A DNA stretch of 64,000 bases, from the IMG/VR virus record IMGVR_UViG_3300022217_000003, positions 32,001-96,000 of that record; one strand, written 5' to 3'. The DNA comes from a virus (Duplodnaviria; Caudoviricetes). This document shows positions 3,924-25,808 of this stretch, piece after piece (position 1 is the stretch's first letter; every line of letters begins with the position of its first letter). The notes below the pieces were generated by a model. It searched no databases. It had not been told where the DNA came from and saw only the letters and a program-made list of their open reading frames with translations. The position numbers were made by a program, and so were the translations under genes.

Positions 3924-5114
3924 TTAATTATCCGCCTTAAAGTTATATATTGGTTTTACAAAATGCTGTATATCCACTGTTTCTTTTATTGAATTTATTA
4001 TAATATCCTTATCTTTATATGCCCCCTTAGCTTCATCTAAGGTATTTGCATTTAAAGAGTTGGTATAAACACCTTTATCTTTCATGGATTTTTGATATTC
4101 TTCTAAATTCAATTCCGCCCTTGCCCTCTTTCTTGATAATACACGTCCAGCCCCATGAGGCGCAGAACAATTCCATTTTTTACTGGATTTACCCTTTCCA
4201 ATTACCAATCCATCTTCCATATTAAAGGGAATAACTAATCTTTCATTTTTATAAGCTCTTATTGCGCCCTTTCTTATTATCCTATCTTCAAAATCAATAT
4301 AGTTATGAACCGATTCTATTTGTTCAACATCTTCCCAAAATCTATAACTATAACTTGCAAATTCTTCTACAAGGTATTCATATATTTTTAATGCCATTAA
4401 TTTCCTGTTAACAGTAGCATAATGTTGGGCAAATTTCATATCACATAAATAACCCTGTCCCTCTGGGCTTTCCTCTAATAAAAATTCCAAATTGTTATAT
4501 GCAGACCCAATAAACATCTTTTTCATCAGTTCTTTTGCTTTTTTTTGATAATATGTAGCTATATCCAAACCAAATTTTCTTGATCCCGAATGTACAGTTA
4601 ACCAATAATTGTCATCTTCATCAATTCCAATCTCAATAAAATGATTGCCCCCACCGAGACTTCCCAGTGCCAATACATTCCTATTTGCATCAGATTCTAT
4701 ATTATCCGAAACGCCTCTAATATCTGGTACATTTAATCCTCCCCTTGTCACTCCTATAGCAAAACCGTTATCGCAAGCAGGCTTAGAATTCACATGAAAT
4801 CCATGAGGGATATTATTTCTTATAAAATCATCCAATTTATCAAAATCAATATCTTTTAATGTTTCTGGCAACTTAACAGTTAATACTCCGCATCCGATAT
4901 CAACGCCAACTATATTAGGGATTACATATCCATTCATCTTCATTGTAAGCCCTATTACCGCACCCATTCCGGCATGGCAATCAGGCATAATAGCAATATA
5001 GGTCTTTGCGAAAGCGGGATGATTTAAAAAACCATATGTCTGCGATATAGTAGTCTGATCTAATTGGTCAATCATAATATTTGCTGAATTATATTTTGCT
5101 TTTAATGTTATCAT
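3924..5114 (-). CDS. rtcB: RNA 3'-phosphate/5'-OH ligase RtcB
   Basis: MPDCHAG, VGVDIGCG, LGSLGGGNHFIE, VHSGSR, HNY, RKGA, SAPHGAGR, DEA..AYK motifs. Confidence 0.97.
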   Translation of the reverse strand: MITLKAKYNSANIMIDQLDQTTISQTYGFLNHPAFAKTYIAIMPDCHAGMGAVIGLTMKMNGYVIPNIVGVDIGCGVLTVKLPETLKDIDFDKLDDFIRNNIPHGFHVNSKPACDNGFAIGVTRGGLNVPDIRGVSDNIESDANRNVLALGSLGGGNHFIEIGIDEDDNYWLTVHSGSRKFGLDIATYYQKKAKELMKKMFIGSAYNNLEFLLEESPEGQGYLCDMKFAQHYATVNRKLMALKIYEYLVEEFASYSYRFWEDVEQIESVHNYIDFEDRIIRKGAIRAYKNERLVIPFNMEDGLVIGKGKSSKKWNCSAPHGAGRVLSRKRARAELNLEEYQKSMKDKGVYTNSLNANTLDEAKGAYKDKDIIINSIKETVDIQHFVKPIYNFKADN

Positions 5115-5142: not shown

Positions 5143-6057
5143 TTACGCAATAACATATTTCCCAATTTTCTCATATCTCTCTATATCCTCCAATGTAATA
5201 ATTTCATAATCCATATCCATACATTGACAAAACATTTGTAATGTTTCAATCTTTAGTGGATTGTTATTGTAAGTCAATAAGTTTTTGGGCTTAATTTCTA
5301 CTAATTTATCTTCGCCATTAGAAAAAATTAACATAAAATCAACAATAAAATTCCTTAATACATCCTTATCATAATAAGGCAAGGAAATAGATTCTGGTAA
5401 AATTTGTACAACATTATCATCATCATCCCATATTTTCAACATTCTTAATTCATAACTGCTACGATAATAAATTAATTTGTGGTATTTATACGTAAGAAAC
5501 CACCCCCTTTTACTATTTTTATTAACTATTTTTTCAGGATTATTTTGAATATATTTAACCATTGCTAACGATTTATTAATTCTGGCTTTTTCTGATAATG
5601 GTTTTTTGTTCTTAATCCTAGATAGCCTAGCTTTTTCTTTTGATTCTGGCGATTGCAACGGATGACCAGATGCCCTTGAAACATCCGCATGATTTTTAGA
5701 CATTTTTATTTTTGTTTCTAAAGAGTGTTTTTTACCATAAAATGGATTGCCTGAACCTTTATTTTTCTCTCTTATTTTTTGTTTTCTTTCCTCCGACAAT
5801 CTCCTCCCTTTCATTGGACTTGGTCTTCCTATTAATGAATTCCTAATTTTTTCCTTATGTTCCTTAGTAAGCTTCCCGCCCCTATTAATATCTCCAATAA
5901 TTTCACCACGACTCTTAATTGGTATATTATATTTTTTTAAAATCTCCTTAGCTCTATTTCTTCCAATATGAAAATAAGTATGCGCATTACGACATCCTAC
6001 TCCAGGCTTAAGATAATATTCAATAAAAGCTTGTTCATCAATATCTTTCGTTTTCAT
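5143..6057 (-). CDS. Free-standing homing-type endonuclease: NUMOD3 DNA-binding repeats plus TnsA-like PD-(D/E)XK domain
   Basis: GNPFYGKKHSLETKIKMS and related repeats (NUMOD3); C-terminal YRSSYE...PESISLPY...VDF...LVEIKP. Confidence 0.8.
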   Translation of the reverse strand: MKTKDIDEQAFIEYYLKPGVGCRNAHTYFHIGRNRAKEILKKYNIPIKSRGEIIGDINRGGKLTKEHKEKIRNSLIGRPSPMKGRRLSEERKQKIREKNKGSGNPFYGKKHSLETKIKMSKNHADVSRASGHPLQSPESKEKARLSRIKNKKPLSEKARINKSLAMVKYIQNNPEKIVNKNSKRGWFLTYKYHKLIYYRSSYELRMLKIWDDDDNVVQILPESISLPYYDKDVLRNFIVDFMLIFSNGEDKLVEIKPKNLLTYNNNPLKIETLQMFCQCMDMDYEIITLEDIERYEKIGKYVIA

Positions 6058-7163
6058 TTATACCCTCTTGATGATTCTGTATGCAGCCCATACGCCCTTG
6101 ACCCTGATAATACTTTATAAATTAACCATTCGTCTTTATACATTTAGCTACCTCGTCTAACATTCTATGCTTCCCAGACATTCTCCCCTTTTTCAAATAA
6201 TGAATATTCCAATAATGGTTGTTATAAGGAATCATTTTTTCATACTTACCCGAATATCTCATCCACCCTAAACGATTCGCCCTTGAATCAATTACCATTG
6301 GCATAAATATATTGTAAAAGAGAATACACCCAAAAGCTAATCCACTTAAAAATATAAAAGCAACACCTATAATTTCGTCTTTATTTTTCATTTCAAATCC
6401 CTCCATCCTTTTTTTTTTCTAAATACGTAGTCAATCTATCGTAAACCTTTTTTTCACCTTCCATAATCCATTTGCGTTTACCTGCGTCCATACCATCTTG
6501 ATATCCCAACTGATATACTTCTCCTTCTCTATCATGTAACGTATCATCAAGTTTCTTTTCTGCCTTTGTATAATATCCGACCTGAAGAACTATCCATATT
6601 GTTCTTGCTAATTTAATAATTAAGTTAAGCGGAATAACATAATAATACCTACGCAGTTTCTCTGGTCTTGAATATGAATAACCCATATACCAAGGGAATT
6701 TTATGATATCCATATCTTTATATTTTACTTTCATTTCATTGCCTCTTTTATTTTGTTTATTAGATCTTCGGCTTCTTTTTTAGTAAGAAAAACATCGTGT
6801 ATGCCATAATTGTCTTCATCACTATCAGATATAGCTATCATAATATACTTATCGTGCCTCTTGCACCCAACACACTCTCTGCCATAAACATTTATTATAC
6901 TATTCTTTATTTCCATTTCATTCCCCCTTTTCAATAATAAGGCACAGGGTGGATAATTAAATCCACCCACGGTAACTATCACTGTCTCGGAGCCAATGAT
7001 GTTTGTGCCATTAAATCAATTACATATAGGTATAAGCTATATGCATCATACGCATAGTAACATAAACAAGCCCTCTTTGGCCGATATCCTCAAGGCAACT
7101 TATTCGTGCTATCATCGGTGGGTATTCCATCCAGCACATATATCACTATGCTTACTTGTTAAC

Positions 7164-7299
7164 AGTAATAAGACATGGGTAGGGATTTGCCGAGGCCTTA
7201 CTCGTAAAGTCACCCTACAAATGAGTGAGCCATTATGCTCTACTGCTTACCTATGGTGGGGACTTAGCGTCTACTCTTTTCGCCACCATGCTTATTACT
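7164..7299 (-). ncRNA. tRNA-like domain 4 (expanded arms)
   Basis: Closing stem, TGGCGAAAAGAGTAGACGC D-arm-like segment, and GTAGGG...CAAATCCCTAC T-arm-like stem with an insertion. Confidence 0.55.
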
Positions 7300-7320
7300 T
7301 ATATCATATCAAAGAACATT

Positions 7321-7397
7321 CGGAGAGCATGGGAATTGAACCCACAATCCGTCCTCCGCTTCATATTAAGGGTCGGATTACCCCTCACGGACTCTCC
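7321..7397 (-). ncRNA. tRNA-like domain 3 (acceptor and T arm; no canonical D or anticodon arm)
   Basis: GGAGAGT/GCTCTCC acceptor; GTGGG-TTCAATT-CCCAT T arm; AATCCG/CGGATT central stem. Confidence 0.6.
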
Positions 7398-7398
7398 A

Positions 7399-7496
7399 TG
7401 GGATGCGGACAGGACTCGAACCTGCGACAAGAGATGCCTATTCTTACTCTTATTGCTACGTAGACATTGCGTTTAACCAACTTCGCCACCGCATCC
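7399..7496 (-). tRNA. Non-canonical tRNA (His-like body, anticodon undetermined, enlarged anticodon loop)
   Basis: GGATGCGG/CCGCATCC 8-bp acceptor (G-1:C73-like); GCG-AAGTTGGTTAAA-CGC D arm; GCAGG-TTCGAGT-CCTGT T arm; ATGTCTA/TAGGCAT stem with a 20-nt loop. Confidence 0.6.
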
Positions 7497-7506
7497 ATAT
7501 TAACAA

Positions 7507-7595
7507 AGGGACGAGGGGGATTCTAACCCCCATAGGATACTGATCAGATTTACTCCGCCACATCATTGGTGCGTTTTAATTTTCGCCATCGTCCC
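7507..7595 (-). ncRNA. tRNA-like domain 1 (pseudo-tRNA)
   Basis: GGGACGA/TCGTCCC acceptor; GCG..CGC D stem with a G-less loop; GGGGG-TTAGAAT-CCCCC T arm; irregular anticodon region. Confidence 0.55.
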
Positions 7596-7610
7596 TCATT
7601 AGCAATATCA

Positions 7611-7639
7611 AATATACTAAATATCATCTCCTTTGTCAA
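7611..7639 (-). promoter_or_regulatory. sigma70-type promoter driving the large ncRNA
   Basis: TTGACA-17 nt-TATATT; predicted +1 near 7604. Confidence 0.85.
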
Positions 7640-7655
7640 GTGTTAATTTTATTTA

Positions 7656-8345
7656 TCAATCAAAATCACCAGAAGTCAAAATTTTCATTAGCTTTTTATC
7701 CGAACCCAATTGCTTTGCCATACCCTTCATCATTGATTTCATTGCCTCGGTATTGAACTTTTCAATAGTTTCTTTCTTCAATTCCTCCAAAGCTATTTCA
7801 ACCTTTGAATCTACTGCCTTAGAAATAATGCTATCAATATCTTCCTTAATATCGTTATTTCTGTAATTCTCCTTTTCACTAAAGAATTGTTTTGTTTTCT
7901 GTAAAAGCTTTTCTTGAATGGATGTTTTTATAAATGTGTCATCTGATTGCAATACGTCTATTTCGTCGGTTATTACTTTTTTAAACAATTCATCAAGTTG
8001 TTTTTTTAACTTACTCTCGAAATATTTAGAACACATGATTTGAACCTGAGCTTTTATTATCTCATTAAGATAGTTTACAGATACATCACAAATACTATTA
8101 TTAAAATCAGATAAAATTGGGTTCAGTTTATCATCTGAAATACTTAAAGATTTAGAAAGCTTATCCCTAACCTCTTTAATTAATTTAGAGTCAGACAAAC
8201 TTTTAAATTTTCTTTCTCTCTCTTCTCTTTTAGAAAGAAAAGCGCACTTAAAATTGTCGTGATCTGGATTGCCATCATAATGATCTTCCATACAATCATC
8301 ACAACTTTCATAGTCTACGTACTCTTCATTTTCTCCGCAATACAT
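7656..8345 (-). CDS. Hypothetical helical protein with Cys-rich N terminus
   Basis: 229-aa ORF with SD, overlapping the end of the CCA gene. Confidence 0.7.
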   Translation of the reverse strand: MYCGENEEYVDYESCDDCMEDHYDGNPDHDNFKCAFLSKREERERKFKSLSDSKLIKEVRDKLSKSLSISDDKLNPILSDFNNSICDVSVNYLNEIIKAQVQIMCSKYFESKLKKQLDELFKKVITDEIDVLQSDDTFIKTSIQEKLLQKTKQFFSEKENYRNNDIKEDIDSIISKAVDSKVEIALEELKKETIEKFNTEAMKSMMKGMAKQLGSDKKLMKILTSGDFD

Positions 8346-9688
8346 AGATTACCTCCCTCCTTAATTAATTTATTCATCATGTCATACGCATAAGATAACG
8401 CATCTTCTTGACATTCAAATTCTTCATTAAGCTGCATATCCATTACTTCTTTCAAAACCTTCCCGAAACTAGGACACGCCTTAAACCCCATATTGGCAAG
8501 ATCCCTCCCCATGACAAAGGGCTTGGGCAATTTAGATTTTTCTTCTACTTCTTCTCTGAATTTAACCAGTTTCTCTTTCATATAATCATATTTATCCAAT
8601 CCGCCATGAGAAGCCAGACAATCCGCCCTGTGCAATTCCATAAGATCCTCAAAGTGCGGACTTGCCATTAGTCTTTTTAGCTTGGACTTTTTCATCTCTT
8701 TAACAAACCTTGTCCGCATATGATTAGCCACGAGAAATACTATCTTATCTTTCTGGTCATTAGACAATTTAAACCTATCGCATATTTCCCCTGCCATTTT
8801 TGCCCCTACTTCATCATGTCCATTAAATCTTATCCTATCTTCAAATGTCTGGGTAGGGGGTTTGCCTATATCGTGTAATAATGTTGCAAATAATAATTCA
8901 GATGATGGACTTCTGTCTTTCAATGCGTCCAATGATAATATGATATGTTCTTCAAGGTATATTTCGGGATGAAATTCTTCTGGTTGTTTTATCTCAAATA
9001 TATTATCAGCTTCTGGCAATATATGATATAATAATTTACTGTCACGTAAGGTATGTAAGAGTTTTCTGGGATTATGCAATTCTAACATTTTAAATATTTC
9101 CTGTATTATTCTTTCATTAGAAACATTAGATATTAAATTTGAATATTTTTTTACAGTCTCCCAGTTACCAGACTCCATACCAAGATTATACTTTACTAAA
9201 AATCTAATCGCACGCAACATACGTAATTGGTCTTCATTTATTCTATCTGATGCATTCCCAACAAACCTTAATGTCTTGCAATACAAATCCCCTTTTCCAT
9301 CAAAAAAATCTATAACCATATCTTCTATAGGGTCATAAAACATAGCATTGATAGTAAAGTCCCTTCTTTTCGCATCTTCTTCCATAGATGTAAATTCAAC
9401 ACTATCTGGTCTTCTCCCATCACTATAATCCCCATCAGAGCGAAATGTGGCTACCTCAAAGCTATCCTCGCCATCTATTACTATTATAACCCCAAATGAT
9501 TTCCCTACAGGTATGGTCTTGTCAAATAGCTTTTCCACCTCATCAGGTGTGGCAGATGTTGCTATATCTATATCGTTATAATCTATTTCCAACAACATAT
9601 CCCTTACACACCCACCTGCGAATACTGCTTCATGTCCATTGTCTTTTAGTTTCCTTACTATCTCTACTGCTTTTTCTAACATATCCAT
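8315..9688 (-). CDS. cca: CCA tRNA nucleotidyltransferase / poly(A) polymerase family enzyme with HD domain
   Basis: GGCVRD, DIDIAT, EVATFR, DAKRRDFTINA, EDQLRMLRAIRF and LLHDIGKP motifs. Start placed at ATG 9688 because ATG 9706 lies inside the promoter. Confidence 0.93.
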   Translation of the reverse strand: MDMLEKAVEIVRKLKDNGHEAVFAGGCVRDMLLEIDYNDIDIATSATPDEVEKLFDKTIPVGKSFGVIIVIDGEDSFEVATFRSDGDYSDGRRPDSVEFTSMEEDAKRRDFTINAMFYDPIEDMVIDFFDGKGDLYCKTLRFVGNASDRINEDQLRMLRAIRFLVKYNLGMESGNWETVKKYSNLISNVSNERIIQEIFKMLELHNPRKLLHTLRDSKLLYHILPEADNIFEIKQPEEFHPEIYLEEHIILSLDALKDRSPSSELLFATLLHDIGKPPTQTFEDRIRFNGHDEVGAKMAGEICDRFKLSNDQKDKIVFLVANHMRTRFVKEMKKSKLKRLMASPHFEDLMELHRADCLASHGGLDKYDYMKEKLVKFREEVEEKSKLPKPFVMGRDLANMGFKACPSFGKVLKEVMDMQLNEEFECQEDALSYAYDMMNKLIKEGGNLCIAEKMKST

Positions 9689-9694
9689 ATTATA

Positions 9695-9723
9695 ATTATA
9701 CTCCATAAATCAATTTTTGTCAA
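9695..9723 (-). promoter_or_regulatory. Consensus sigma70 promoter
   Basis: TTGACA-17 nt-TATAAT. Confidence 0.85.
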
Positions 9724-10338
9724 GTGTTTTTTTATCCTTGCTTTGCAAATAAAATATTAACCAAAGGGGGTTCCATCTACCTAGATTAATTGGTATACCA
9801 CAAAACCACCACTCAACACCTGCTCCCCCACCAACTTCCCATAATTCATATGTCCAAAAAAGAAATCTGCCCCTACTTTTCGTAAAATTGCAAATTATTA
9901 CATTCATATTCCTTTATCCTTATATATTCTTTAGCCTTCTCCCAAAATATTTCTATTTTATCCCTATGCCTATTTCTCTTATCTATATGCAGCCATTCAT
10001 GGTTAAATTTACTATCAATATTACGTAACCAATCCACGCATGCGCCCACTAGTTTATACTTTTTAGTAAACGGGCATCCTTCACAGATCTTTTCCCCATG
10101 ACAATATTCTTTACACATAAGCCACCTATTAAATATTTGATGGTGTACCGATTTTACTATTTTGTTATTATTAAACACAGTAAACCTTGTTTCTATATCA
10201 TTGTAATATAATTCTGGAATAATTATATTCAAATCATCAAGTTTTTGAAACCAACTATCTCGGCTACCTGACCCATAAAACCTATGAATCCCCCATCTAT
10301 GATCCCATCCATATCTTTTAAGTGTTCCTTTATCCATA

Positions 10339-11754
10339 TTATATAAGTCCGCTTTCTAATATTAATTTACCTACTACTGCGACACATTGAGGTACAACAG
10401 CATTTCCCAGGCATTTTAGCCTATTAACCCTATTCTTCTTTTCTGTTGTCAATCTTGGTATATCATCTGGCTCTTTATGCCATCCATCAAATTCTCCTGT
10501 TTCTTTATCTATATCTGTCCAATATCTAGGGTAGCCCATTAGCCAACCCACCCAATCAGGATTTAAATTGCCCTGACCTTTATTTTTAACTTTATCAGGC
10601 AAACTATTATTTTCATTTCTACCACTTGCCTTTAATGTTTCAGATTTTCTTGCACCTTTATAATCTCTTGTGGTAGGAGTTGGGAACATTTTCTGTTTTT
10701 CCTTACCTTCTTTTTCAAGAATTCCAGATAACATACCCGGTTCTCCATTTTTACGAACTTGCCCTTTCCAATCTCCAGCTATAGGGGTAGGGAATTTCCT
10801 TTTCTCTTCTATACAACCAACCGCATCTTTTAACTTAACGCCCCACCTCACACCATCTTTATTAACCCTGCTAAAATTGCCGTCTTTTAATTCTACATTC
10901 TTTACTACCCCGCCTTCTGTATCTGATACCCTTGGGGTAGGAAACATCTTAACCGTATCTGCTAAATTAAGACTATGGCTATTATCCCCATCCTTTGTTT
11001 TCCTTCTTCCATTTTCATTTAATTCTAATTCAGGATGTTCTATTTCTTGAGTTGTTGGTGTTGGGAACATCTTAATAGTCTTGCTTAACCCTGCCCCCTT
11101 GCCTGTATTGGGATTTATACCACTTCTTTCCGTGGCTGTAGGAGTAGGAAACATTTTAACCGCTGCTTTGAGACCTATCCCCCTCTTGTTTGTTTCTCTC
11201 ATTTTCTTTATGGCTGATGGGCTTCTGCCCGTTGAACTTGCTTCTGGAGTTGGGAACATTTGATTAACTTCTTTATAAGGAGGTCTTTTAGAACTATGGT
11301 ATTTAGCCTGTATAAAATCACCCATTGTCATCATTGAGCTAGTGGGCGTTGGCCACATTTCTTTGGGGTATCCCCACTTCGTTGCTTGCTCTTCCCATTT
11401 ATCTATGGGTATATTATTAGATTCCAATCTTGCTTCAACCACAGCCTTACACATTTCGGGATTTACCTGCTCTCTTAAATTGCCTGGCTTAGATCTATTT
11501 TTCCTTGCCCCATTTGTTATCATTTTTTTCATTGCATCTTTACTTCTCATTCCCATGTGATCCATTGTATTGGGGGTAGCAAACAATCCACACTCTTTCC
11601 CTTTTATGCCAAGCCCCAACTTCTCAGTAGAATAAATTATACCATTTTTTAATTGCCCATATTTAGGGAATATATCAAATATTATATCAAACAATGTAAA
11701 GGACTTTATAATTGTATTTTTATTTTTTATTTCAGCTATTTGATTTTTTTTCAC
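10339..11754 (-). CDS. C5-cytosine DNA methyltransferase, C-terminal part (PTP-repeat variable region plus motifs IX-X)
   Basis: Eight (F/W)(P/A)TP-started repeats, then LNPDWVGWLMGYP..WT and RLKCLGNAVVPQ. Confidence 0.85.
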   Translation of the reverse strand: MKKNQIAEIKNKNTIIKSFTLFDIIFDIFPKYGQLKNGIIYSTEKLGLGIKGKECGLFATPNTMDHMGMRSKDAMKKMITNGARKNRSKPGNLREQVNPEMCKAVVEARLESNNIPIDKWEEQATKWGYPKEMWPTPTSSMMTMGDFIQAKYHSSKRPPYKEVNQMFPTPEASSTGRSPSAIKKMRETNKRGIGLKAAVKMFPTPTATERSGINPNTGKGAGLSKTIKMFPTPTTQEIEHPELELNENGRRKTKDGDNSHSLNLADTVKMFPTPRVSDTEGGVVKNVELKDGNFSRVNKDGVRWGVKLKDAVGCIEEKRKFPTPIAGDWKGQVRKNGEPGMLSGILEKEGKEKQKMFPTPTTRDYKGARKSETLKASGRNENNSLPDKVKNKGQGNLNPDWVGWLMGYPRYWTDIDKETGEFDGWHKEPDDIPRLTTEKKNRVNRLKCLGNAVVPQCVAVVGKLILESGLI

Positions 11755-12562
11755 AATATATTACCCACTCTTCCATAGTTTTATTGCTTTTCTGCCTATT
11801 GCACGAAAAGTGTGCTACTCCCAAATTATCATAGGCATTATCTCCCCCTCTTGATACGGGCTGTATATGTTCTATTGTGTCACTACTATCAACTATGGGT
11901 TCATTACACAATATACATGTTAATTGCCCATACTTTTTAATATTATCTTTTTTTATATTTCTTATAGTCCTCGCTGATAATTCTGAAACACTACACCTCC
12001 TTCTTATATGAGAAGCTTTATTAACTTCTTTACCCCGAGGAGTTTGTAGATACTCTTTAGCGTATCTCTTCCTTTCTTCTATATTATTTAAATAATATAT
12101 CTTTGCTTTCTTTAATATTTCATCTCTATTTTTATCATACCATATCCTTCTTTTTTCTTTTATTTCCTCTTTTTTTTCTTCTCTATAGCATTTCATTATT
12201 TTCTTCCCTTGCTCACTATTTCTATATACCCTTTGCTTCATATTTATTTTTTTCTTATTTTCATCATAATATTTCTTTTGCCTGAGAGAAATTCTCTCTT
12301 TATTCTTTTGATAATATCTTTTTTGAGACTTTTTACCATTTTTTGTTTGCCTATATTCTTTCTGCTTTTTATAAATTTCCTCTTTATTATCTTGGTAATA
12401 TTTTTTCTTTTGAATAGAATATGCATCTTTATTTTCAATGTATCTTAATTTAGAAAGCTCACTTTTTCTTTTTTTTACATGTGGCTGTTGCTCATAATGT
12501 TTCTCACAAAAACCATGCGCATAATGTGTTAATTCACAATCTTGCATTTTACATATCTTCAT
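11732..12562 (-). CDS. HNH homing endonuclease inserted between the two methyltransferase halves
   Basis: N-terminal C..C....HGFCEKHY zinc motif; K/R/Y-rich helical repeats; C-terminal CILC...TIEHIQPVSRGG.N..DNL..AHFSCNRQK. Confidence 0.9.
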   Translation of the reverse strand: MKICKMQDCELTHYAHGFCEKHYEQQPHVKKRKSELSKLRYIENKDAYSIQKKKYYQDNKEEIYKKQKEYRQTKNGKKSQKRYYQKNKERISLRQKKYYDENKKKINMKQRVYRNSEQGKKIMKCYREEKKEEIKEKRRIWYDKNRDEILKKAKIYYLNNIEERKRYAKEYLQTPRGKEVNKASHIRRRCSVSELSARTIRNIKKDNIKKYGQLTCILCNEPIVDSSDTIEHIQPVSRGGDNAYDNLGVAHFSCNRQKSNKTMEEWVIYCEKKSNS

Positions 12563-12566
12563 ATAA

Positions 12567-13088
12567 TTACCTAAATATATCGCCTAAAAAATCATTTTTA
12601 TAGGCAATAATCCATATTCTTTCGCGTTTATGCCAAGCTCCAACATCAGAAGCACTAATAATTTGCCATTCACAACTATATCCCATTGAATTAATTTCAA
12701 GGATAACCGTTTCCATCCATTTGCCATTTTCCCCAGATAAAAGATTTCTAACATTTTCAAGAAATAATAGCTTGGGCTTACATATATTTGCTATCCTTAT
12801 TATTTCAAAAAACAAGCCACTTCTTTCTGCATTGATACCTTTTTGCTTTCCTGCCACCGAAATATCTTGGCATGGGAATCCCGCCGTAATGATATCAACA
12901 TCCATTATATCTTTTGGATTTATTTTAGTAATATCCCCCAATGGTATTGCATCAGGATAATTTTTTGCATATACTTTATTTGCATATTTATCTATATCTG
13001 AATAATATACTTTGTCAAATTTAAACCCTGCCATTTCTAATCCATGGTGGAATCCTGAAATGCCCGAAAAAAGATCTAGTAATATCAA
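12567..13088 (-). CDS. C5-cytosine DNA methyltransferase, N-terminal catalytic part (motifs I-VIII)
   Basis: LDLFSGISG, GDI, AGFPCQD (catalytic Cys), LENV, HKRERIWI. Confidence 0.93.
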   Translation of the reverse strand: MILLDLFSGISGFHHGLEMAGFKFDKVYYSDIDKYANKVYAKNYPDAIPLGDITKINPKDIMDVDIITAGFPCQDISVAGKQKGINAERSGLFFEIIRIANICKPKLLFLENVRNLLSGENGKWMETVILEINSMGYSCEWQIISASDVGAWHKRERIWIIAYKNDFLGDIFR

Positions 13089-13343: not shown

Positions 13344-14033
13344 TTAATCTTCCCTCACATAAACATACTGTTCAATATAATTTCTATCCTTAGAAAATAT
13401 TGGTATTTCTTTATCCAGTCCATTATCTTTGGTTATGCAAAATCCTCTTTTTCTAATTATTGGATAATCATTAAAATTAATACCATGCGCTTGAAATAAC
13501 ATTTCCTGCACATCATTACATGTTTTTTGATGCATCTGTTTATGGCTGAAATATTCCCTTCCGGCCATTTGGATCGCATTTCGTGTAGCATCTAATTGTC
13601 TCCATAAAAAATAATTGCATACCTCATCTTGTGGTATGGAAAATACCCTGCTGTCAAAAGATACATTTTTACCAAATACCCTTGAGAATACAGAGCTCGC
13701 CAATGAAGCAGATATACTAATCATCTTGCGGGCATCATAATCAAACCACCCATCTGTATTTATAGTTTTATAATCAGTAAGAAGAAAACTGACCTCATCT
13801 GATTGGGAATAACATATATTACACCCCTGCATATCCGCCATAACAGTCTTTGCGACTTCTATCATCTGCTCTACGAATTCCATACACCAATTTTTACCAA
13901 ACCTTTTTCTGGTTATTGTATGAAAAGCCCTACCATCTATTCTAAGGATAACAGGTATTCTTTTAGGTAATACATATTCCGCCACCCTCTCATATTTCTT
14001 CATCCTCTTGCCTATATCTAAGTGTTCTGACAT
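13344..14033 (-). CDS. thg1: tRNA(His) guanylyltransferase / Thg1-like 3'-5' polymerase
   Basis: RMKKYE, RIDGRAFH, YSQSDE, FDSR, YFLWRQLDA.RN motifs. Confidence 0.93.
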   Translation of the reverse strand: MSEHLDIGKRMKKYERVAEYVLPKRIPVILRIDGRAFHTITRKRFGKNWCMEFVEQMIEVAKTVMADMQGCNICYSQSDEVSFLLTDYKTINTDGWFDYDARKMISISASLASSVFSRVFGKNVSFDSRVFSIPQDEVCNYFLWRQLDATRNAIQMAGREYFSHKQMHQKTCNDVQEMLFQAHGINFNDYPIIRKRGFCITKDNGLDKEIPIFSKDRNYIEQYVYVRED

Positions 14034-14273: not shown

Positions 14274-14419
14274 AAGGCACGGGTGCTTGATTTCACACAA
14301 CATTATCGCATTGTTTTAAGAAGATTGAGCACCAATTAAAACAGATTGATGTATGGAAAATTGAGCTTCTATGAGAGGCTTCCATATAGCAATGTCAGGG
14401 TATCACCCCACCGTGTCTT
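14274..14419 (-). ncRNA. Candidate structured RNA with a tRNA-like multiway junction
   Basis: AAGACACGG/CCGTGCCTT closing stem; GGG-TGATA-CCC; GACATT/AATGTT enclosing TATGGAA/TTCCATA and TGTTTTAA/TTAAAACA; GTG-TGAAATCAAG-CAC. Confidence 0.5.
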
Positions 14420-25612: not shown

Positions 25613-25656
25613 TTGGTGGATAATAAACCCTACCCTTGGGTGGATCTTATAGATCC

Positions 25657-25729
25657 AATAAGTAACGGGACTCGAACCCGAAACACTTGGTTTTCAAGAC
25701 CAATGCTCTACCAATTGAGCTATACTTGT
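25657..25729 (-). tRNA. tRNA with TGA anticodon (nominal Ser) but short variable loop; no encoded CCA
   Basis: ACAAGTA/TACTTAT acceptor (1 mismatch); GCTC-AATTGGTA-GAGC; TTGGT-CTTGAAA-ACCAA; CGGG-TTCGAGT-CCCG. Confidence 0.8.
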
Positions 25730-25808
25730 TAATTTTCAGTGGGAATATTAACCCAAATCCCCAGGGAGACATATGTTTATGATTTTCGGCAGATCCTCCT
25801 TATTTATT

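What the first reader, a model, noticed from the sequence alone, without database searches (positions are those of the whole stretch)
7164..7595. Four tandem tRNA-shaped modules with intact acceptor and T stems but abnormal anticodon arms
Seen: modules at 7507-7595, 7399-7496, 7321-7397 and 7164-7299 each keep a well-paired acceptor-like stem and T-like stem with different sequences, and three keep a GCG/CGC D stem. None has a canonical 5-bp/7-nt anticodon arm. Random decay should also damage the stems, so selective loss of the decoding arm suggests selection on shape only. Inference: tRNA mimics acting as decoys for tRNA-cleaving defences, as ligands for T-box, RelA or EF-Tu, or as modular building blocks and processing signals of the large RNA.
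Basis: partly seen in the sequence, partly recalled or inferred. Interest (0 to 1): 0.75.

Follow-up and report, generated by a model that had tools for sequence, protein, structure and literature searches.

The report
Four non-decoding tRNA look-alikes in phage
A large uncultured phage transcribes four tandem RNAs that keep the upper half of a tRNA but cannot read codons; they are variants of a widespread, barely described class of phage tRNA look-alikes (phage T5 RNA1 is one) whose function is still unknown.

Summary
On the minus strand, behind a near-consensus promoter, lie four tandem tRNA-shaped modules (7595-7507, 7495-7401, 7397-7321, 7299-7164), followed by a strongly folded 3' domain of about 225 nt. 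Modules 1, 2 and 4 are built on a class II (leucine-type) tRNA frame. Module 3 keeps only the acceptor and T arms. All acceptor and T helices are paired, none encodes CCA, and none has an anticodon arm fit for decoding. Module 2 comes closest: a CUACGUA loop, but with a stem mismatch and a pyrimidine at position 37.

The frames are 56-60% G+C and the middles 37-41%, in a 34% genome. The middles fold no better than shuffles.

I found no orthologue of this array. The same leucine-type frame with a non-canonical middle recurs in at least 74 viral contigs, with covarying stems, and phage T5 RNA1 matches it. This scan has reported the class before on other DNA (at least 19 genomes).

A CCA-adding enzyme, RtcB and a Thg1-like enzyme are encoded nearby.

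Best reading: non-decoding tRNA top-half mimics, matured like tRNAs. A decoy role is inferred, not shown. Decay of old tRNA genes is not excluded.

The parts
7611..7639 (-). Sigma-70-type promoter: TTGACA, 17 nt, TATATT. The -10 hexamer ends 15 nt before the 5' end of module 1.
   Evidence: 11 of 12 consensus matches, the best site in 6700-7900; sequence read.
7507..7595 (-). Module 1, 89 nt. Acceptor GGGACGA/UCGUCCC, U8 G9, D stem GCG/CGC, a 10-nt D loop without G18 G19, a 39-nt non-canonical middle, T arm GGGGG-UUAGAAU-CCCCC (A instead of C56), discriminator U, no CCA.
   Evidence: Rfam tRNA 33.5 bits; frame model R1 49.1 bits; this sequence was in the training set.
7401..7495 (-). Module 2, 95 nt, the most tRNA-like. 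Acceptor GAUGCGG/CCGCAUC with G at -1 and discriminator C. Leucine-type D arm with G18 G19. Arm AAUGU-CUACGUA-GCAAU (A-A mismatch, U37). 25-nt variable arm with a 13-nt loop. Canonical T arm GCAGG-UUCGAGU-CCUGU. No CCA.
   Evidence: 38.8 bits; ARAGORN drawing, 'Arg ACG'; R1 60.5 bits; in the training set.
7321..7397 (-). Module 3, 77 nt. Acceptor GGAGAGU/GCUCUCC and T arm GUGGG-UUCAAUU-CCCAU are intact. No U8, no leucine-type D arm. The middle can be forced into a poor cloverleaf (loop AAUAUGA with A33).
   Evidence: seen only at -ps80; R1 12.6 bits, acceptor and T arm only. No Rfam tRNA hit at E up to 10.
7164..7299 (-). Module 4. Leucine-type 5' part (UG-GCG-AAAAGAGUAGA-CGC), a 50-nt middle, and a 6-bp stem GUAGGG/CCCUAC closing a loop of about 28-30 nt that holds a small hairpin. 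Closed by a long stem, AAUAAGCAUGG with CCAUGUCUUAUU, with one bulged U.
   Evidence: 23.3 bits, E 1.2e-3 genome-wide; 28.6 bits at 7171-7292, independent of the training set.
6941..7163 (-). Co-transcribed structured 3' domain ending in a GGGUGGAU-UUAA-UUAUCCACCC hairpin, a GGCACA/UGUGCC closing stem and a U-rich tail. It probably marks the end of the transcript.
   Evidence: folding 6941-7170 (MFE -71.5 against -54.0 +/- 4.0 for shuffles, z -4.4, 0 of 200). No Rfam family. Pieces 6924-7074 and 7145-7194 are 100% identical in a second sediment run.
8315..9706 (-). Context: CCA-adding enzyme with an HD domain, one gene upstream of the array.
   Evidence: PolyA_pol 1.9e-37, PolyA_pol_RNAbd, HD; phrog_2244 6e-74.
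3924..5114 (-). Context: RtcB RNA ligase, about 2 kb downstream of the array.
   Evidence: RtcB 9.8e-72; phrog_1075 2e-125.
13344..14033 (-). Context: Thg1-like 3'-5' nucleotidyltransferase.
   Evidence: Thg1 1.2e-23; Thg1C 5.5e-5, 23.8 bits, below the 26.3-bit cut-off.

Best explanation
One promoter drives a minus-strand transcript of about 660 nt. It carries four tandem tRNA-derived modules and then a structured 3' domain. Modules 1, 2 and 4 are built on the frame of a class II (leucine-type) tRNA. Module 3 keeps only the acceptor and T arms.

None can decode. I read them as tRNA 'top-half' mimics that work as follows:
1. Host RNase P and RNase Z cut them out of the precursor, as they do tRNAs.
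2. They receive CCA, which none of them encodes. The phage's own CCA-adding enzyme, encoded one gene upstream, is the likely source.
3. They then persist as stable RNAs that present the acceptor and T-arm surface without entering translation.

Their most likely use is as competitor substrates (decoys or sinks) for proteins that recognise or attack tRNA ends. This would sit beside the phage's end-repair enzymes: the CCA/HD enzyme, the Thg1-like enzyme and RtcB.

Shown: the shape, the promoter, the composition contrast between frame and middle, the unstructured middles, and the existence of a large phage class with the same frame.
Inferred: processing, CCA addition, stability and the decoy role.
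For: - Shape and detection.
- Leucine-type D arm in modules 1, 2 and 4, including an independent model hit on module 4.
- Promoter at 11 of 12 consensus positions just upstream, and a structured terminal domain.
- Composition: modules are 49-55% G+C in a 34% genome (top 1% of 90-nt windows) and a spacer is 18%. Frames are 56-60% and middles 37-41%.
- All four middles fold like shuffles, z between -0.35 and +0.14.
- No intron-containing tRNA reading from ARAGORN's intron search.
- Decoding is unlikely. Module 2 has U37 and a stem mismatch. Module 3 has A33, no U8 and no Rfam hit. CGU, CGC and CGA together make up 5.9 codons per 1000 in long open frames.
- Class level: 74 of 116 pattern matches in viral contigs have 7/7 acceptor pairs. 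All 7 acceptor pairs and 3 T-stem pairs covary; the covariation score is 0.77 against 0.18 for shuffles.
- In the class, 47 of 61 members with A73 have U at -1. By my own knowledge this is the nucleotide RNase P prefers.
- T5 RNA1, annotated 'tRNA-like stable RNA with unknown functions', matches the frame at 39.4 bits. A 128-nt 'tRNA-OTHER' in a 164-kb Klebsiella phage scores 57.8 bits.
- No recurrent neighbouring protein in the class, so these look like stand-alone RNAs that rely on host machinery.
- CCA/HD, RtcB and Thg1-like genes lie within about 7 kb.
Against: - There are no expression or end-mapping data for these RNAs.
- No orthologue of this array was found, so there is no covariation evidence for these four sequences themselves. 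The class-level set was chosen by a pattern derived from module 2 and filtered for paired stems.
- Modules 1 and 4 lack elbow nucleotides that over 90% of the class keeps: G18 and G19 in module 1, G18 in module 4, and C56 or a normal T loop.
- The discriminators are U, C, G and U, whereas most class members have A.
- Class members are not linked to CCA-adding or RtcB genes. Among 115 loci, one had RtcB, three had Thg1 and none had a CCA enzyme.
- A middle near background composition is also what simple decay of the anticodon arm would give.
- Nothing here points to a particular protein target.
Confidence: 0.45

Rival explanations
1. Decaying tRNA genes. The array is the remnant of a phage tRNA cluster, mostly class II tRNA-Leu copies. 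The anticodon arms have degenerated. The remaining stems survive by chance, by recent origin, or only because they still act as RNase P/Z cutting signals.
For: The middles are near genomic G+C and fold like shuffles. Modules 1 and 4 have also lost elbow nucleotides. Module scores fall from 2 to 1 to 4 to 3. A distant jumbo phage has an ordinary tRNA-Leu(UAA) right after its CCA-enzyme gene. A related population in another sample diverges inside module 4.
Against: Every acceptor and T helix is still paired, and the frames hold 56-60% G+C in a 34% genome with 18% spacers. An 11-of-12 promoter serves the array alone. The same architecture recurs in many unrelated phages with covarying stems, which is not expected of pseudogenes.
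Confidence: 0.2
2. Carriers or processing modules. The tRNA frame serves as a stable, self-processing scaffold. It either displays the variable middle (a single-stranded or weakly folded segment that binds an RNA or protein), or it punctuates and stabilises the co-transcribed structured 3' domain.
For: The 3' domain is strongly structured (z -4.4) and 100% conserved in a second sample, while the sequence upstream of 7194 differs there. In the class, identical frames (AGUCAGG acceptor) carry unrelated middles, sometimes two per phage. The class has no partner protein.
Against: The middles here show no excess structure. They have no complementary target in the phage genome beyond chance: the longest match is 14 nt. 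Four modules are more than punctuation needs. The three leucine-type frames differ in sequence, unlike a constant scaffold.
Confidence: 0.2
3. Real but odd decoding tRNAs. Module 2 would be a class II tRNA reading CGN (anticodon ACG, deaminated to ICG) and module 3 a tRNA-Ile(UAU) reading AUA.
For: ARAGORN assigns Arg(ACG) to module 2, and Ile(UAU) to module 3 at relaxed settings. Module 2 has C32, U33 and a canonical elbow. AUA is the commonest Ile codon in the phage's long open frames, 48.7 per 1000.
Against: Module 2 has U at position 37 (a purine in functional tRNAs, by my own knowledge), an A-A stem mismatch and a 13-nt variable-arm loop. Its codons are rare in the phage, 5.9 per 1000. 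Module 3 has A33, no U8, mismatched D and anticodon stems, and no Rfam tRNA hit at E up to 10. Modules 1 and 4 have no usable loop at all.
Confidence: 0.07
4. Intron-containing or split tRNAs. An endonuclease cuts them and the neighbouring RtcB reseals them, restoring normal anticodon arms.
For: RtcB lies about 2 kb away. Some phage tRNA-Leu genes in the comparison set do carry 18-39-nt hairpins inside a recognisable CUUAA or CUUAG loop (L057, L081, L131). Lak megaphages have unexplained tRNA introns (PMC6784885).
Against: ARAGORN with introns allowed returns no intron-containing tRNA for any module. My own reading found no excision that gives a 5-bp stem with a 7-nt loop and a leucine anticodon. 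No bulge-helix-bulge motif was seen. The insertions are far too short for group I introns.
Confidence: 0.03
5. Y-RNA-like (YrlA-type) tRNA mimics that tether a Ro60/Rsr protein in an RNA repair particle, as in the rsr-yrlA-rtcBA operon.
For: RtcB is nearby. Module 2 contains GGCGAAG, which fits the YrlA motif GNCGAA-N(0-1)-G (PMC4201824). There is a weak Rfam YrlA hit at 7364-7452.
Against: The YrlA hit scores 14 bits against a gathering score of 69, E 9.5, and spans two modules. There is no TROVE/Ro60 gene in the 175.8-kb record, which is estimated 77% complete. GGCGAA is simply the leucine-type D arm. YrlA is closed at the acceptor end and opens at the anticodon side, the reverse of modules 1-3.
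Confidence: 0.02

Closest known systems
Phage T5 RNA1 (NC_005859 30501-30644, annotated 'tRNA-like stable RNA with unknown functions'), with its neighbours RNAI and RNAIII
   Same: Phage-encoded, in tandem with other stable RNAs and tRNA genes. Leucine-type D arm (UG-CCG-GAAUUGGUAGA-CGG), a T arm, and a long non-canonical middle. It matches my frame model at 39.4 bits, E 3e-9. Function unknown.
   Different: T5 RNA1 has a much longer middle (the match is 131 nt). The modules here are shorter (77-136 nt), and modules 1 and 4 have lost elbow nucleotides. This array is also followed by a structured 3' domain.
Phage T4 species 1 and species 2 RNAs (rnaC, rnaD)
   Same: Small stable RNAs of unknown function encoded in the tRNA cluster next to tRNA-Arg. 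rnaC ends in a canonical T arm with an acceptor-like 3' strand.
   Different: rnaC matches the leucine-type frame only weakly (23.1 bits) and its acceptor pairs at 5 of 7 positions. It has no GCG/CGC leucine-type D arm.
Class II bacterial and phage tRNA-Leu (Rfam RF00005), for example the tRNA-Leu(UAA) after the CCA-enzyme gene of a related jumbo phage (L024 9482-9566)
   Same: 7-bp acceptor, U8 G9, 3-bp D stem with a long D loop, a long extra arm and a 5-bp T arm. It scores about the same on the frame model (46-48 bits).
   Different: The modules have no leucine anticodon, no regular anticodon stem-loop, no A73 and no encoded CCA.
YrlA / bacterial Y RNAs (Rfam RF02553; Chen et al. 2014, PMC4201824)
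   Same: tRNA mimics that carry D and T arms. That paper reports them as substrates of tRNA enzymes (RNase P, CCA addition, modification) and as genetically linked to RtcB in some bacteria.
   Different: No Ro60 gene, no significant model match, and a different topology.
The anticodon-less tRNA-Leu-shaped phage RNA class noted earlier in this scan (for example e1-3375269, e1-5840199)
   Same: Same leucine-type frame with a hypervariable middle. I reached the same class independently through a pattern scan before reading those notes.
   Different: Those notes describe longer, often structured inserts, and mostly frames with A73. Here the middles are short and unstructured, the discriminators differ, and four modules stand in one transcript beside tRNA end-repair genes.

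Membership tests
Canonical decoding tRNA (Rfam RF00005) | Score at or above the family's gathering score (29 bits) | tested here: inconclusive
   Modules 2 and 1 pass (38.8 and 33.5 bits). Modules 3 and 4 give no hit even at E up to 10.
Canonical decoding tRNA (Rfam RF00005) | 5-bp anticodon stem with a 7-nt loop carrying U33 and a purine at 37 | tested here: not met
   Module 2: CUACGUA with U37 and an A-A stem mismatch. Module 3: forced loop AAUAUGA with A33. Modules 1 and 4: no such arm.
Class II tRNA-Leu | U8, a 3-bp D stem with a long D loop (GCG ... CGC), and a long variable arm | tested here: met
   Modules 1, 2 and 4. Module 3 does not have it.
Class II tRNA-Leu | Leucine anticodon (NAG or YAA) and discriminator A73 | tested here: not met
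   No leucine anticodon loop in any module. The discriminators are U, C, G and U.
Phage leucine-frame tRNA-like RNAs (T5 RNA1 type) | Paired 7-bp acceptor, leucine-type D arm, 5-bp T stem, and a non-canonical middle longer than in a tRNA-Leu | tested here: met
   Modules 1 and 2 meet it (middles of 39 and 43 nt). Module 4 meets it apart from its expanded T loop. Frame model R1 scores 49.1, 60.5 and 28.6 bits. The class is defined, and T5 RNA1 matches it.
Phage leucine-frame tRNA-like RNAs (T5 RNA1 type) | Elbow nucleotides G18 G19 and a UUCRANY T loop (over 90% conserved in the class; the T loop was fixed by the search pattern) | tested here: inconclusive
   Module 2 keeps them. Module 1 lacks G18 and G19 and has A56. 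Module 4 has A18 and a loop of about 28-30 nt.
YrlA / Y RNA | Rfam RF02553 gathering score, and a Ro60 (TROVE) gene nearby | tested here: not met
   14.1 bits against 69. No TROVE match in the record at E up to 1; the record is estimated 77% complete.
Intron-containing tRNA (archaeal bulge-helix-bulge type or group I) | Removing an internal segment restores a standard anticodon arm | tested here: not met
   ARAGORN with introns allowed finds none. The insertions are 4-40 nt longer than a tRNA-Leu, too short for group I introns.
tmRNA; GOLLD and ROOL large RNAs | Match to the family model | tested here: not met
   ARAGORN's tmRNA search finds nothing. No Rfam GOLLD or ROOL hit at gathering score, or at E up to 10.

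The most novel reading that the evidence does not exclude
The four modules are counter-defence RNAs: CCA-tailed tRNA top halves that cannot enter translation. They would soak up host enzymes that attack or tag tRNA acceptor ends. They would work together with the phage's own 3'-end (CCA/HD), 5'-end (Thg1-like) and break-sealing (RtcB) repair enzymes. That would give a first function to the fifty-year-old class of phage 'tRNA-like stable RNAs'.
Probability: 0.15. Interest if true: 0.8.

Novelty: new variant of a known kind. Interest (0 to 1): 0.55.

Why it matters
Phage tRNA-like stable RNAs have been known in T4 and T5 for decades, by my recollection, without a function. The pattern scan here shows that a leucine-tRNA frame with a replaced anticodon arm is common in uncultured phages. 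Genome records annotate it poorly: 'tRNA-OTHER', a wrong isotype, or nothing at all.

This locus adds an unusual case. Four such modules sit in one promoter-driven transcript, with short and unstructured middles. They lie beside a CCA-adding enzyme, RtcB and a Thg1-like enzyme. That points to the acceptor and T-arm surface, rather than an inserted cargo, as the selected part, and it suggests concrete assays.

Practically, it warns annotators that ARAGORN's 'tRNA-Arg(ACG)' and 'tRNA-Ile(AAU)' calls here should not be read as decoding capacity.

Tried and rejected
Searches for orthologues of the array all failed:
- blastn of 6900-7700 against 50,697 phage records: no match.
- The 229-aa neighbour has two homologues, both in unrelated recombination modules with no tRNA-like RNA.
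- The closest CCA-enzyme homologues are at most 52% identical.
- 19 RtcB-bearing viral loci hold only ordinary tRNAs.
- Metagenome scan with a 27-mer from module 4: nothing.
- Metagenome scan with module 2's acceptor plus D strand: at least 119 hits, none called a tRNA by ARAGORN, read as chance matches in G+C-rich (apparently coding) DNA.
- Viral scan with module 1's frame: one chance hit.
- Genome scan with module 2's D arm: two matches with no tRNA called.

Other family assignments rejected: Ro60/TROVE, YrlA, tmRNA and intron-containing tRNA, GOLLD and ROOL.

Other tests with negative results:
- Antisense targets in the phage genome: longest complement 14 nt, about what chance gives.
- Recurrent protein neighbour of the class: none; the largest cluster covers 4 of 78 loci.
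- Plus-strand ORFs 6996-7463 and 7225-7476 have no Pfam or PHROG match and run against the coding strand used in this part of the window.

Expression: no RNA holder is listed for this stretch. The second DNA run covers the region only in 151-nt pieces, so uncovered parts say nothing.

Complex prediction and the structure tools were not used, because no protein partner is proposed.

Full report
WHERE AND WHAT. The window is part of a 175.8-kb IMG/VR virus record that is about 77% complete and 34% G+C, from a sediment sample. ORFs in the part I listed and the base skew across the whole window point to the minus strand as coding. The finding lies in a gap of about 700 nt with no minus-strand ORF, between 6983 and 7655. 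The two plus-strand ORFs over it have no Pfam or PHROG match. Read on the minus strand, the gap starts with a near-consensus promoter: TTGACA, 17 nt, TATATT at 7639-7611 (11 of 12 positions). The four modules follow. A 225-nt domain ends the gap. It folds far better than shuffles (-71.5 against -54.0 +/- 4.0 kcal/mol, z -4.4) and finishes in a hairpin with a U-rich tail.

THE OBSERVATION.
- ARAGORN calls modules 2 and 1 as overlong 'tRNA-Arg(ACG)' (96 nt) and 'tRNA-Ile(AAU)' (91 nt). Rfam tRNA scores them 38.8 and 33.5 bits.
- Module 3 is seen only at relaxed ARAGORN settings.
- My own scan for a 7-bp acceptor directly following a 5-bp T arm with a U54-U55-A58 loop finds modules 1-3. It gives two other hits in the whole genome (the one inspected lies inside an ORF); Markov shuffles gave 0-3.
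- Module 4 is recovered independently by a covariance model of the leucine-type frame: 28.6 bits, E 2.7e-7 locally and 1.2e-3 genome-wide.
- Two refinements. Module 2 has a 7-nt loop CUACGUA on a five-position stem with one A-A mismatch, then a 25-nt variable arm. Module 4's 'T arm' is a 6-bp stem around a loop of about 28-30 nt, and its acceptor runs on into an 11-14-bp stem with one bulged U.

WHAT THE FRAMES ARE. Modules 1, 2 and 4 share U8, G9, a 3-bp GCG/CGC D stem and a long A-rich D loop (module 2: AAGUUGGUUAAA). By my own knowledge, this is the signature of class II tRNA-Leu. A distantly related jumbo phage, whose CCA enzyme is 50% identical, has an ordinary tRNA-Leu(UAA) with A73 and encoded CCA right after its CCA-enzyme gene. 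Module 3 has no U8 and no leucine-type D arm; only its acceptor and T arm match (12.6 bits). None of the four encodes CCA. The discriminators are U, C, G and U.

SELECTION ON THE FRAME.
- The modules are 49-55% G+C. Only about 1% of 90-nt windows in this genome reach 49%. The spacer between modules 3 and 4 is 18%.
- Within modules 1 and 2 the frame is 56-60% G+C and the middle 37-41%, close to background.
- The middles of all four modules, and module 4's large loop, fold no better than dinucleotide shuffles, with z between -0.35 and +0.14.
- So the acceptor, D and T parts look maintained and the middles do not. It would also fit a cluster in which only the cutting signals are still needed.
- Module 1 has lost both partners of the G19-C56 elbow pair (no G18 G19; T loop UUAGAAU). 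Module 4 has no normal T loop. Only module 2 keeps a canonical elbow.

RELATIVES.
- I found no orthologue of this array.
- One other sediment run holds 100%-identical pieces of 6924-7074 and 7145-7194, then runs on unlike the window from 7194, inside module 4. A piece at 9704-9854 differs at 2 bases. This hints that the array upstream of 7194 is exchanged rather than slowly mutated. The cover is only 2-3 fold and in 151-nt pieces.

A CLASS, NOT A ONE-OFF.
- A pattern taken from module 2 (TGGCGAA, 6-14 nt, CGC, 44-74 nt, GGTTCRANTCC) is too long between D stem and T loop for a normal tRNA-Leu.
- Of 116 matches with flanks, 74 have 7 of 7 acceptor pairs and 7 have 6 of 7. Chance would give about one in a thousand.
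- In 78 aligned sequences all seven acceptor pairs and three T-stem pairs change on both sides. The covariation score is 0.77 against 0.18 for shuffles and 0.11-0.14 for slid partners. The D stem and T loop were fixed by the pattern, and I had filtered for paired stems, so the raw 74 of 116 is the fairer figure.
- ARAGORN with introns allowed assigns these sequences scattered, inconsistent anticodons or none. Rfam scores them 30-45 bits, like the modules here.
- Their middles are hypervariable. About two dozen members share an identical or near-identical frame (acceptor AGUCAGG) around unrelated middles, sometimes twice in one phage.
- Most middles show little excess structure: median z -0.64, and 15% below -2.
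- The nucleotide at -1 is U in 47 of 61 members with A73. By my own knowledge this is what RNase P substrates prefer.
- No protein family recurs next to them. RtcB, Thg1 and CCA genes are rare in their flanks.
- After this I read the scan's earlier notes. The same class had been reported at least 21 times in at least 19 other genomes. I checked two of their leads. T5 RNA1, annotated 'tRNA-like stable RNA with unknown functions' and standing in tandem with RNAI, RNAIII and tRNA-His, matches my frame model at 39.4 bits. T4 rnaC matches only weakly, 23.1 bits. A 164-kb Klebsiella phage carries a 128-nt member annotated 'tRNA-OTHER' (57.8 bits).

HOW IT PROBABLY WORKS. The surroundings encode a CCA-adding enzyme with an HD domain one gene upstream, RtcB about 2 kb downstream, and a Thg1-like enzyme about 6 kb upstream. 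Iyer et al. describe these as sporadic tRNA-repair genes of jumbo phages (PMC7824862). The modules keep the parts that, by established tRNA biology, RNase P, RNase Z and CCA-adding enzymes recognise: the acceptor and T-arm helix. They encode no CCA and cannot decode. My best reading, at about even odds, is that they are matured like tRNAs and act through the tRNA top half. The most likely role is as competitor substrates for proteins that bind or attack tRNA ends. That last step is inference only.

Decoding is unlikely:
- Module 2 has U37, a mismatch and a 13-nt variable-arm loop, and its codons are rare (5.9 per 1000).
- Module 3's 'UAU' reading would suit the phage's very frequent AUA codon (48.7 per 1000). 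But it needs A33, has no U8 and mismatched stems, and gets no Rfam hit.

The other readings:
- Splicing has no support.
- A Y-RNA reading fails on the model score and on the absence of Ro60. The YrlA motif GNCGAA (PMC4201824) is here just the leucine-type D arm.
- A scaffold or punctuation role for the structured 3' domain stays open.
- So does plain decay.

NOVELTY. This is a new variant of a known but unexplained kind, the phage tRNA-like stable RNAs. Its special points are four modules in one transcript, short unstructured middles, varied discriminators, and a position among tRNA end-repair genes.

Noticed in passing
window 25656-25730 (-): The phage's only clean tRNA (Rfam 61.6 bits) is a 75-nt class I body with a short variable loop and anticodon UGA (serine codon UCA). 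Bacterial tRNA-Ser is class II, so its amino-acid identity is unclear.
   Followed up: no
window 6941-7170 (-): The co-transcribed 3' domain folds far better than shuffles (z -4.4) and has no Rfam family. In a second sediment run, pieces 6924-7074 and 7145-7194 are 100% identical, and that contig departs from the window at 7194, inside module 4.
   Followed up: partly
window 14274-14419 (-): A second orphan RNA. It has a 9-bp closing stem, then UG and GGG-UGAUA-CCC as in a tRNA 5' part, and a 6-bp stem around a large loop as in module 4. Its 3' tail, CACCC-GUGCCUUAUUAUU, is nearly identical to the end of the 3' domain at 6941-6960. No Rfam hit and no frame-model hit.
   Followed up: partly
G000:C1:7135-7245 (-), outside the window: Another tRNA-like element, with two T-arm-like hairpins (ACGG-UUCGAUU-CCGU and CAGGG-UUCGAAU-CCCUG) and a paired acceptor. 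The frame model gives 19.6 bits.
   Followed up: partly
L057 2764-2865, L081 597-718, L131 2782-2899: Phage tRNA-Leu(UAG/UAA) genes with an 18-39-nt hairpin inserted in an otherwise recognisable anticodon loop (fold z -4.7 to -6.2). They resemble the unexplained short tRNA introns of Lak megaphages.
   Followed up: no
L035, L075, L111, L116, L124 (viral contigs): Class II tRNA bodies with discriminator G and regular anticodon arms that carry GUU or GUC (Asn or Asp codons). They are possible serine-identity tRNAs that read non-serine codons.
   Followed up: no
L142 1102-1229 (Klebsiella phage PV402692 30317-30444): A 128-nt leucine-frame tRNA-like RNA stands at the head of a tRNA cluster. The matching site in similar ~164-168-kb Klebsiella/Raoultella phage records is annotated 'tRNA-OTHER', 'tRNA-Ser', 'tRNA-Thr' or not at all.
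   Followed up: partly
window 5143-6057 (-): A NUMOD3 plus TnsA-like endonuclease gene sits between the array and RtcB. It is probably a homing endonuclease. An HNH gene splits a C5 methyltransferase at 10339-13088.
   Followed up: no
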